A DNA stretch of 64,000 bases from assembly GCF_030013205.1 (NCBI RefSeq), contig NZ_CP122649.1, one strand, 5' to 3'. Positions 17,155 through 17,318 of the stretch are shown one piece after another. The position numbers and the translations under genes were made by a program. The first letter of the stretch is position 1; each line of letters starts with the position of its first letter. Origin of the DNA: Escherichia coli. GTDB lineage: Bacteria > Pseudomonadota > Gammaproteobacteria > Enterobacterales > Enterobacteriaceae. The notes beneath the pieces were generated by a model that saw only the letters and a program-made list of their open reading frames with translations, made no database searches and was not told where the DNA came from.

Positions 17155-17318
17155 CATAGGGTCACTTTTTGCTGAAAAGTGGCCCTATGCACCATCGACA
17201 TAGGGTCACTTCTTGATGAAAAGTGACCCTATGTAATCACGACATAGGGTCACTTTTTTTAAAAGTGGCACTATGCGTCAAAATCATAGGGTCACTTTCC
17301 TTTAAAAAGTGGCACTAG
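17155..17318. repeat. four tandem palindromic sites CATAGGGTCACTTTT-N5-AAAAGTGACCCTATG
   Basis: Units at 17155-17189, 17199-17233, 17243-17275, 17285-17318, about 44-bp period. Confidence 0.85.

What the first reader, a model, noticed from the sequence alone, without database searches (positions are those of the whole stretch)
17155..17318. Four tandem palindromic sites in the candidate oriT
Four units of CATAGGGTCACTTTT-N5-AAAAGTGACCCTATG at about 44-bp spacing lie in the 730-bp gap between the divergent mating-pair and relaxosome operons. Such an array suits cooperative binding by a relaxosome accessory protein or regulator at oriT. The half-site contains AAAAGT, as does the dispersed palindrome, hinting at a shared recognition code. 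The nick site cannot be located by inspection.
Basis: partly seen in the sequence, partly recalled or inferred. Interest (0 to 1): 0.55.

Follow-up and report, generated by a model that had tools for sequence, protein, structure and literature searches.

The report
Phased protein-binding array in IncHI oriT
The four palindromes are real and lie in the transfer-origin region of an R27-type IncHI1 resistance plasmid; they are really eight alternating half-sites, one every 22 bp, conserved across IncHI-like plasmids, and most likely the landing pad for the accessory protein(s) that bring the relaxase to the DNA.

Summary
Window 17155-17319 holds four ~34-bp palindromes at 44/44/42-bp spacing. The half-site CATAGGGTCACTT occurs nowhere else in the 64 kb.

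The window is 100% identical to IncHI1 plasmid R27. The array lies between trhR (regulatory R operon) and traH (H operon: traH, a 240-aa gene, the MOBH relaxase traI, traG). Published work places the R27 oriT next to traH.

A better description is eight half-sites of alternating orientation on a regular 22-bp lattice, about two helical turns.

- Between IncHI1 and IncHI2 the half-sites are 95% identical, against 59% for the rest of the gap and 41-56% for the spacers.
- In six more diverged lineages (MobI 30-56% identical) the same lattice recurs. The outer half-site bases differ between lineages, are shared by all units of one plasmid, and the inner ACTTT is constant.

TraH belongs to the Pfam MobI family. 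The 240-aa protein has a predicted AcaB-like fold (RHH-like DNA binder).

Best reading: a relaxosome-assembly array bound by TraH and/or the AcaB-like protein, beside a conserved AT-rich segment that may hold nic. Binding and nic are inferred, not shown. This is a known kind of element, of moderate interest.

The parts
17155..17319 (.). Array of eight alternating half-sites (consensus CATAGGGTCACTT) on a 22-bp lattice, equal to four ~34-bp palindromes (17155-17189, 17199-17233, 17243-17275, 17285-17319)
   Evidence: IncHI1 versus IncHI2: half-sites 95% identical against 59% for the rest of the gap.
17307..17341 (.). Deviant last half-site plus a conserved AT-rich flank (AAGTGGCACTAGATAGATGTATAACTTAG); candidate melting or nic segment (inferred)
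   Evidence: GCACTAGATATATGTATAACTT is invariant across IncHI1, IncHI1B and IncHI2. TAGATATATATATAA follows the array in L013 and TATGTATAA in the Klebsiella lineages.
16902..16914 (.). Dispersed palindrome AAAAGTAACTTTT, left of the array, near the trhR start
   Evidence: conserved in IncHI2.
17387..17399 (.). Dispersed palindrome AAAAGTTACTTTT, right of the array
   Evidence: conserved in all lattice-bearing lineages.
16965..17055 (-). Highly conserved block with a promoter-like site on the minus strand (TTAGCA-17-TAAAAT with TG, 17031..17003); likely the trhR (R operon) promoter
16027..16827 (-). trhR (activator subunit, R operon)
   Evidence: annotated trhR; PMC7366339.
15512..16024 (-). 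trhY (activator subunit, R operon)
   Evidence: PMC7366339.
17585..18070 (+). traH, 161 aa, MobI-family relaxosome adaptor
   Evidence: Pfam PF19456, E=1e-21. The AF2 model has pLDDT 90 and is a helical hairpin plus a small beta sheet. Called TraH of R27 in bioRxiv 2025.04.21.649884.
18067..18789 (+). 240-aa protein with an AcaB-like predicted fold (RHH-like DNA binder); always follows mobI in this clade
   Evidence: AF2 pLDDT 78. Foldseek top hit is 6n8a AcaB, E=1.8e-5, probability 1.0. A profile against PDB gives AcaB as top hit, E=0.014.
18800..21835 (+). traI, MOBH-family relaxase
   Evidence: annotated MobH family relaxase; TraI_2 domain in the homologous loci.
17546..17568 (.). Conserved inverted repeat AAATCACT-N7-AGTGATTT over a TATAGT -10-like hexamer, just upstream of the traH ribosome-binding site; possible operator
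   Evidence: palindrome 17541-17573; invariant in alignment A1.

Best explanation
The array is the accessory-protein docking module of the IncHI (MOBH11) origin of transfer.

Eight half-sites of alternating orientation, one every ~22 bp (two helical turns, so all on one face of the duplex), are bound side by side by a plasmid-specific, self-associating DNA-transfer accessory protein encoded immediately downstream. The most likely binder is TraH, the MobI-family adaptor, possibly together with the AcaB-like 240-aa protein. The resulting nucleoprotein array recruits the MOBH relaxase TraI through its C-terminal domain, as shown for MobI and TraI of IncC plasmids. It places TraI on the adjacent conserved AT-rich segment (about 17315-17340), where strand opening and nicking would occur.

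The outer half-site bases (CATAGGGTC in R27) set the plasmid-specific address. The inner ACTTT is common to the whole clade.

Shown here: the array, its lattice, selective conservation of the half-sites, lineage-specific concerted change, and the protein family and fold assignments.

Inferred: which protein binds, cooperativity, relaxase recruitment here, and the nic position.
For: 1. Location. The array lies in the trhR-traH gap of R27. The R27 oriT is reported directly next to the MobI-like gene (PMC10838148). TraH is Pfam MobI and is required for R27 transfer (bioRxiv 2025.04.21.649884).

2. Uniqueness. The half-site occurs only here in 64 kb. The F-operon upstream region, another TrhR/TrhY target, has no copy.

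3. Selection on half-sites. IncHI1 versus IncHI2 identity is 95% in half-sites, 56% in inner spacers, 41% between units and 59% in the rest of the gap.

4. Same architecture in diverged lineages. L013, L015, L016, L017 and L008/L011/L012 (MobI 30-56% identical to TraH) all carry 6-12 alternating half-sites at 20-25 bp, with a unit period of 44-46 bp, upstream of mobI.

5. Concerted change. All units of one plasmid share the same outer bases, and these differ between plasmids: CATAGGGTCAC, CACAGTGTAAC, TATGTTTAAC, CATTAGTAC, CATTTGTGAA, CATCTCAAAC. This is what a shared sequence-specific protein predicts.

6. Uncompensated one-sided changes. Unit 1 is GGCCC in R27, GGTCC in L003 and GACCC in IncHI2, opposite an unchanged or separately changed left arm. 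This argues against a hairpin constraint.

7. MobI of IncC self-associates and binds the TraI C-terminal domain, which sets oriT selectivity.

8. A natural variant (pE2) lacks exactly one 44-bp unit, as expected of a modular array.
Against: - No binding data exist for TraH or any MobI protein in the literature I could read.
- The TraH model has no recognisable DNA-binding fold and no significant PDB match (best Foldseek E=0.07).
- The neighbouring 240-aa protein does have a DNA-binder-like (AcaB) fold and is equally syntenic, so it may be the true or sole binder.
- Protein divergence does not discriminate: MobI, the AcaB-like protein, TrhR and TrhY all diverge in parallel.
- More distant MobI loci (IncC L021, Shewanella L010, L018, L019) have other repeat types, not this lattice.
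- The minimal oriT and nic of R27 could not be checked, because Lawley 2002 is not held.
Confidence: 0.55

Rival explanations
1. The array is an upstream activating site for the AcaB-like 240-aa protein. It controls the divergent trhRY (R) and/or traH (H) promoters in a positive feedback loop like AcaB-AcaCD of IncC plasmids. On this reading it is a transcriptional element that merely sits in the oriT region and is not needed for nicking.
For: - The 240-aa protein has an AcaB-like fold (Foldseek E=1.8e-5, probability 1.0; profile against PDB gives AcaB as top hit, E=0.014).
- AcaB is an RHH-like activator of the master-activator operon, is itself induced by that activator, and forms a feedback loop (PMC8373056).
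- The gene lies in the TrhR/TrhY-activated H operon.
- The array lies about 120 bp upstream of the promoter-like site for trhR.
- The gene is syntenic with the array in every lineage, even as a split gene in L016.
Against: - The array overlaps neither promoter. It is more than 100 bp from the R promoter-like -35 and more than 200 bp from the traH -10-like hexamer.
- Eight sites spanning 165 bp is large for an upstream activating site.
- The palindromes in the IncC Pacr1 region have a different architecture.
- The Pfam DUF1845/AcaB model does not match the 240-aa protein, so the relationship is remote.
- A dual role in regulation and relaxosome assembly is not excluded, so this rival overlaps the best explanation.
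Confidence: 0.2
2. The palindromes act as single-stranded hairpins or cruciforms recognised by the MOBH relaxase TraI itself. This would resemble the gonococcal genetic island, where TraI needs a 32-nt inverted repeat and nicks 3 nt 5' of it. One unit, probably unit 4 next to the conserved flank, would be the true recognition hairpin.
For: - The units (33-35 nt) are the size of the 32-nt inverted repeat in the gonococcal island oriT (PMC6736028).
- The bottom strand folds into four hairpins, -38.3 kcal/mol, z=-7.5.
- On the bottom strand the conserved flank lies immediately 5' of unit 4, the position of nic in the gonococcal island.
Against: - For the gonococcal TraI, structure rather than sequence of the repeat matters. 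Here sequence is conserved across all eight arms of a plasmid.
- One-sided changes are not compensated.
- Unit 4, the one nearest the conserved flank, forms the weakest hairpin (7 bp).
- Fourfold to sixfold repetition on a helical-phase lattice is not explained.
- MOBH1 systems, unlike MOBH2, need a MobI adaptor.
Confidence: 0.1
3. The array is the operator of the conjugation regulators TrhR/TrhY (activators) or HtdA.
For: The array sits between the R and H operons, and the H operon is TrhR/TrhY-dependent (PMC7366339). The half-sites share ACTTTT/AAAAGT with the plasmid-wide dispersed palindrome.
Against: - TrhR/TrhY act on the F, H, AC and Z operons. The half-site is absent from the rest of the 64 kb, including the F-operon upstream region 14901-15511.
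- HtdA acts at the protein level on TrhR/TrhY.
- The dispersed 13-bp palindrome is a better candidate for a plasmid-wide regulator.
Confidence: 0.05
4. The array is a partition centromere (parC-like) or a set of replication iterons.
For: Arrays of phased repeats are typical of centromeres. In SXT, IncC and Shewanella relatives a parMRC-like locus lies directly upstream of mobI (PMC4489591).
Against: In R27 and all lattice-bearing lineages the divergent neighbour is trhR, not parM. The R27 partition modules are described elsewhere on the plasmid. No rep gene is adjacent. IncC shows separate 11-bp iterons next to parM, distinct from its oriT repeats.
Confidence: 0.02

Closest known systems
oriT of IncA/C plasmids (Hegyi et al. 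2017, PMC5587640) and of SXT/R391 ICEs (Ceccarelli et al. 2008): MobI-dependent MOBH12 origins
   Same: AT-rich, lies immediately upstream of a mobI-family gene, and is packed with short inverted and direct repeats. It needs MobI and a MOBH relaxase, and nic is unmapped. In IncC I found five copies of AGATTCCAGAT in both orientations, and an AGATAGAT motif that also follows the R27 array.
   Different: IncC has no regular 22-bp lattice of alternating 13-bp half-sites. Its repeat sequence, spacing (30, 59, 65, 28) and number differ. In IncC and SXT the divergent neighbour is a parM-like gene and traI is about 50 kb away, whereas in IncHI traH, the AcaB-like gene, traI and traG form one operon next to oriT.
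Accessory-protein binding arrays of classical oriTs (F TraY/TraM sites, R388 TrwA sites, RP4 TraJ site, R64 NikA site)
   Same: Repeated or palindromic sites beside nic, bound by small plasmid-specific proteins (often RHH) that direct the relaxase. This rests on established knowledge and is summarised in PMC5587640.
   Different: Those arrays usually have 1-3 sites with unequal spacing. Here there are eight half-sites at a constant two-turn spacing, the candidate binders are a MobI-family coiled-coil protein and an AcaB-like protein, and none of the binding has been demonstrated.
oriT of the gonococcal genetic island (MOBH2 TraI; Heilers et al. 2019, PMC6736028)
   Same: Same relaxase superfamily (TraI_2 HD domain). 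It has an inverted repeat of about 32 nt adjacent to nic.
   Different: That oriT has a single repeat recognised as a hairpin by structure, and needs no MobI. Here four or more sequence-conserved units occur and a MobI-type adaptor is required.
AcaB operator at Pacr1 of IncC plasmids (Hancock et al. 2020, as cited in PMC8373056)
   Same: A protein of AcaB-like fold is encoded next to the array, and its gene lies in the regulon of the master activators.
   Different: The relationship to AcaB is remote: 14% identity, detected by fold search and only weakly by profile. The IncC Pacr1 region shows one 24-bp palindrome plus a half copy, not a lattice. I could not read the AcaB site itself.

Membership tests
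MobI-dependent MOBH1 origin of transfer | Lies immediately upstream of a mobI-family gene on an element with a MOBH relaxase | tested here: met
   traH is Pfam MobI, E=1e-21. A MobH relaxase and a T4CP lie downstream. The same synteny holds in 10 related loci.
MobI-dependent MOBH1 origin of transfer | The fragment confers mobilisation in cis | not testable with these tools
   Literature only. PMC10838148 states that the R27 oriT lies directly next to the MobI-like gene, citing Lawley 2002, which I could not read.
MobI-dependent MOBH1 origin of transfer | Contains the nic site cleaved by TraI | not testable with these tools
   nic is unmapped for MOBH1 systems (PMC5587640). I can only name a candidate, the conserved flank 17315-17340.
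MobI-dependent MOBH1 origin of transfer | AT-rich region with multiple inverted and direct repeats | tested here: met
   GC is 0.33-0.44 across 16850-17450. Repeats are listed.
Binding site of a dimeric sequence-specific protein (TraH/MobI or the AcaB-like protein) | Half-sites are conserved while spacers drift | tested here: met
   95% against 41-59% identity between IncHI1 and IncHI2.
Binding site of a dimeric sequence-specific protein (TraH/MobI or the AcaB-like protein) | Site sequence changes together with the cognate protein across lineages, and in the same way in all copies of one element | tested here: met
   Lineage-specific half-sites are shared by all units of a plasmid. However, all four neighbouring proteins diverge in parallel, so the binder is not identified.
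Binding site of a dimeric sequence-specific protein (TraH/MobI or the AcaB-like protein) | Direct protein-DNA binding | not testable with these tools
   No EMSA, footprint or ChIP data were found for TraH or any MobI protein.
Relaxase recognition hairpin (gonococcal island, MOBH2 type) | Pairing is maintained by compensatory changes, with the sequence itself free to vary | tested here: not met
   One-sided uncompensated changes occur in units 1, 3 and 4, and the sequence is conserved across units.
TrhR/TrhY-dependent promoter element | Present at the several TrhR/TrhY-activated promoters (F, H, AC, Z) | tested here: not met
   The half-site is absent outside 17155-17319 in the window, including the region upstream of the F operon. 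The AC and Z operons lie outside the stretch examined.
parC-type centromere | Adjacent parM/parR (or parA/parB) genes | tested here: not met
   The neighbours are trhR and traH. parM is adjacent only in the IncC and Shewanella relatives, which lack this lattice.

The most novel reading that the evidence does not exclude
The lattice is the first defined DNA 'address' of the MobI family of relaxosome adaptors. Elongated coiled-coil TraH dimers, with helices of about 46 residues (roughly 68 Å, about 20 bp), would polymerise head-to-head and tail-to-tail along one face of the DNA. They would read a variable outer code (CATAGGGTC in R27) that decides which IncHI-type plasmid's relaxase can act on which oriT. 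The invariant inner ACTTT would be read by a second, clade-wide factor that also binds the dispersed AAAAGTNACTTTT sites. If so, oriT specificity in IncHI plasmids, and cross-mobilisation of the Klebsiella virulence-plasmid remnants that keep only the array and mobI, could be predicted from sequence.
Probability: 0.25. Interest if true: 0.6.

Novelty: new member of a known kind. Interest (0 to 1): 0.4.

Why it matters
IncHI1 and IncHI2 plasmids, and the related Klebsiella IncHI1B/virulence plasmids, are major carriers of multidrug resistance, including typhoid resistance, mcr-9, tet(X4) and NDM.

For the whole MOBH1 relaxase group, neither the nic site nor the DNA target of the essential MobI adaptor is known. 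The comparative picture here gives concrete, testable targets:
- a fixed 22-bp lattice;
- lineage-specific outer bases with a constant inner ACTTT;
- a conserved flank next to the last, deviant half-site.

It specifies which 13-mers to mutate or swap, which 30 bp to probe for nicking, and two candidate binders. It also predicts which plasmid remnants that retain the array and mobI could be mobilised by which helper plasmid.

If the array were only a promoter element, it would instead reveal an AcaB-type feedback loop in IncHI conjugation control.

Tried and rejected
- **Primary paper on the R27 oriT** (Lawley 2002; also Sherburne 2000 and Ceccarelli 2008): not held under DOI, PMC id or PubMed id. 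The published oriT limits and any earlier description of these repeats could not be checked. Nine literature searches found no paper describing them.
- **NCBIfam**: no hit for TraH, the 240-aa protein, TrhR or TrhY.
- **Pfam**: nothing significant for the 240-aa protein, TrhR or TrhY.
- **Fold search of the TraH model**: no significant PDB match, only weak resemblance to prefoldin and V-ATPase stalk subunits. AFDB50 returned only other MobI proteins. DNA binding by TraH therefore cannot be argued from fold.
- **Identifying the binder from protein divergence**: MobI, the AcaB-like protein, TrhR and TrhY diverge in parallel, so this was uninformative.
- **Using L016 as a locus lacking the AcaB-like gene**: the gene is there, split into two ORFs.
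- **Looking for the lattice in more distant MobI loci** (IncC, Shewanella, L018, L019): absent. They carry other repeats, some probably parC centromeres.
- **Array-only 'oriT mimics' in E. coli genomes**: 299 of 303 places are on plasmids, and I found no clear stand-alone copies.
- **The AGATAGAT 8-mer** shared with the IncC oriT core: too short to weigh, about 0.2 expected by chance by my estimate.
- **Centromere and TrhR/TrhY-operator readings**: rejected on gene context and on uniqueness of the half-site.

Full report
**What is there.**
Window 17155-17319 contains four imperfect palindromes of 33-35 bp at start-to-start spacings of 44, 44 and 42 bp. The half-site CATAGGGTCACTTTT is strongly over-represented. 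It has 10 matches with up to 3 mismatches against 1.9 expected, and 0 of 100 shuffles reach that number. All seven close matches lie inside the array, so the motif is unique to this spot in the 64 kb.

When the 13-mer half-sites are listed on both strands, they fall on an even lattice: 17155+, 17177-, 17199+, 17221-, 17243+, 17263-, 17285+, 17307-. The steps are 22, 22, 22, 22, 20, 22 and 22 bp. 'Four palindromes' is therefore one of two equivalent registers. The structure is eight half-sites of alternating orientation, one every two helical turns, all on one face of the duplex. The right arms of units 3 and 4 deviate (GGCAC for GACCC), and the last half-site ends CTAGA.

**Where it is.**
The region is 100% identical to Salmonella Typhi plasmid R27 (IncHI1) and to more than 230 other plasmids. 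To the left lie trhR and trhY, the R operon, which encodes the two activators of the transfer operons. To the right lies the H operon: traH (161 aa), a 240-aa gene, the MOBH relaxase traI and the coupling protein traG (PMC7366339).

TraH is a member of Pfam MobI (E=1e-21). Papers citing Lawley et al. 2002 say that the R27 oriT lies directly next to this gene and that TraH is the required MobI-like factor (PMC10838148; bioRxiv 2025.04.21.649884). I could not obtain the 2002 paper itself, so I do not know the published oriT limits or whether these repeats were drawn there.

**Comparative evidence among close relatives.**
I aligned the whole gap from IncHI1, two IncHI1B-typed relatives, an IS1-bounded remnant and two IncHI2 plasmids. 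The half-sites are almost invariant, while the loops and the spacers between units have diverged. Identity between R27 and IncHI2 is:
- 95% in the half-sites;
- 56% in the inner spacers;
- 41% between units;
- 59% in the rest of the gap.

The deviations of units 3 and 4 are themselves conserved. The remnant (pE2) lacks exactly one 44-bp unit.

Four other elements in the gap are also invariant:
- the segment GCACTAGATATATGTATAACTT that follows the last half-site;
- a block at about 16965-17055 holding a promoter-like site for trhR;
- two copies of the 13-bp palindrome AAAAGTNACTTTT that flank the array;
- a short inverted repeat over the -10-like hexamer in front of traH.

**Comparative evidence among distant relatives.**
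I collected loci whose MobI protein is only 30-56% identical to TraH, from plasmid records and from metagenome contigs. Every locus with the gene order trhY/trhR-like, gap, mobI, 240-aa homologue, TraI_2 relaxase has the same lattice. That means 6-12 alternating half-sites at 20-25 bp and a unit period of 44-46 bp.

The inner part of the half-site (ACTTT) is constant. The outer part is specific to the lineage and is shared by all units of one plasmid:

| Locus | Half-site |
|---|---|
| R27 | CATAGGGTCAC |
| L013 | CACAGTGTAAC |
| L015 | CTTGTCGCAC |
| L016 | TATGTTTAAC |
| L008 | CATTTGTAAC |
| L012 | CATTAGTAC |
| L011 | CATTTGTGAA |
| L017 | CATCTCAAAC |

The last three Klebsiella-type variants differ although their MobI proteins are 86-94% identical.

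In each lineage the last half-site deviates and is followed by an AT-rich TATGTATAA-like segment. More distant MobI loci (IncC, a Shewanella plasmid, L018, L019) have other kinds of repeats. Some of these sit next to a parM gene and are probably centromeres.

**What this pattern means.**
Three features together are the signature of a sequence-specific protein that binds double-stranded DNA as a symmetric oligomer. Selection acts on sequence rather than merely on pairing. All copies within a plasmid change in concert. The phasing is fixed at two helical turns.

Single-stranded hairpins are a weaker explanation. One-sided changes are not compensated: unit 1 reads GGCCC in R27, GGTCC in L003 and GACCC in IncHI2. 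The unit nearest the conserved flank folds worst. For the one MOBH relaxase studied, structure rather than sequence of the repeat matters (PMC6736028).

A TrhR/TrhY operator is unlikely, because those activators act on four operons and the motif is absent upstream of the F operon in this window. A centromere is excluded by gene context.

**Which protein binds.**
TraH/MobI is the first candidate. In IncC plasmids MobI self-associates, binds the C-terminal domain of TraI and sets oriT selectivity, and islands that carry only an oriT and a mobI gene are mobilised. No DNA-binding experiment on a MobI protein was found.

My AlphaFold model of TraH is confident (pLDDT 90). It shows two ~45-residue helices flanking a small beta sheet and matches no known DNA-binding fold. 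The length of the helical hairpin, about 68 Å, is close to the 20-22-bp step of the lattice. That is suggestive only.

The second candidate was unexpected. The 240-aa protein, with no Pfam or NCBIfam match, gives a model (pLDDT 78) whose only significant PDB match is AcaB, the RHH-like activator of the IncC master-activator operon (Foldseek E=1.8e-5, probability 1.0). A sequence profile of the family independently ranks AcaB first (E=0.014).

This protein follows mobI in every lineage. It could be a co-binder in the relaxosome. Alternatively, by analogy with the AcaB-AcaCD loop, it could be an activator acting on the divergent trhRY and traH promoters through this array. Protein divergence does not separate the candidates.

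**Verdict.**
The oriT context is backed by the literature, and the accessory-protein reading by the comparative data.
- Binding, cooperativity and nic remain untested.
- The left operon is regulatory, not mating-pair.
- The element belongs to a known kind, accessory-protein arrays at transfer origins. Its regular two-turn lattice with a lineage-specific outer code appears characteristic of the IncHI-like (MOBH11) clade.

I put 0.55 on a relaxosome-assembly array (TraH and/or the AcaB-like protein), 0.2 on a purely transcriptional AcaB-type site, 0.1 on relaxase hairpins, and the rest on minor rivals.

Noticed in passing
window 3670, 6124, 7927, 8205, 8287, 13824, 16462, 16902, 17387, 22123, 23853, 32958, 33076, 39602, 45840, 47117, 51005, 53939, 61086, 62424: The 13-bp palindrome AAAAGT[A/T]ACTTTT occurs 20 times (up to 1 mismatch) in the window against 0.23 expected. 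About half the copies lie in gaps between long ORFs. One or more copies accompany the oriT array in every lattice-bearing lineage and none occurs in the IncC or Shewanella loci. It is likely the site of a clade-wide, plasmid-wide regulator.
   Followed up: partly
window 18067-18789 (+): The unannotated 240-aa protein downstream of traH has a predicted fold matching AcaB (PDB 6n8a), the RHH-like activator of IncC conjugation. AcaB is also the top sequence-profile hit in PDB. The gene is syntenic with mobI across the clade.
   Followed up: partly
window 16965-17055: This is the most conserved block of the gap outside the array. It holds a promoter-like site on the minus strand (TTAGCA-17-TAAAAT with an extended -10 TG), probably the trhR/trhY promoter.
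   Followed up: no
window 17541-17573: A conserved inverted repeat AAATCACT-N7-AGTGATTT spans a TATAGT hexamer just upstream of the traH ribosome-binding site. It may be an operator or a 5'-leader hairpin. No good -35 is present, which fits an activator-dependent promoter.
   Followed up: no
L005 (NZ_CP086663.1, E. coli pE2, IncY) 1474-2185: An IS1-bounded remnant carries a trhR fragment, the array with exactly one 44-bp unit missing, mobI and a truncated 240-aa gene, on a plasmid typed as non-mobilizable. Klebsiella hybrid or virulence-type plasmids (L009, L012) likewise keep the array and mobI but have lost the relaxase to IS5.
   Followed up: no
L021 (IncC NZ_CP149999.1) 15089-15106 and 15182-15199; window 17315-17325: The IncC oriT core repeats CCAGATAGATAG, and the R27 array is followed by CTAGATAGATG. 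The shared AGATAGAT could be a common MOBH1 nick-region motif or could be chance.
   Followed up: no
L021 10404-10427 and 10809-10835: The IncC Pacr1 region, the reported AcaB target region, contains a perfect 24-bp palindrome CAAACTTTCACATGTGAAAGTTTG, a half copy 81 bp upstream, and a second palindrome TAACTTTGTTCCG/CGGTACAAAGTTA. All are built on ACTTT/AAAGT, like the IncHI motifs.
   Followed up: no
window 15512-16024 (-): TrhY ends with a CxxC-N12-CxxC motif (CAKC...CPRC), a zinc-ribbon-like feature. The only Pfam hit is weak (Zn_Tnp_IS91, E=0.05). Neither TrhR nor TrhY matches any Pfam or NCBIfam family.
   Followed up: partly
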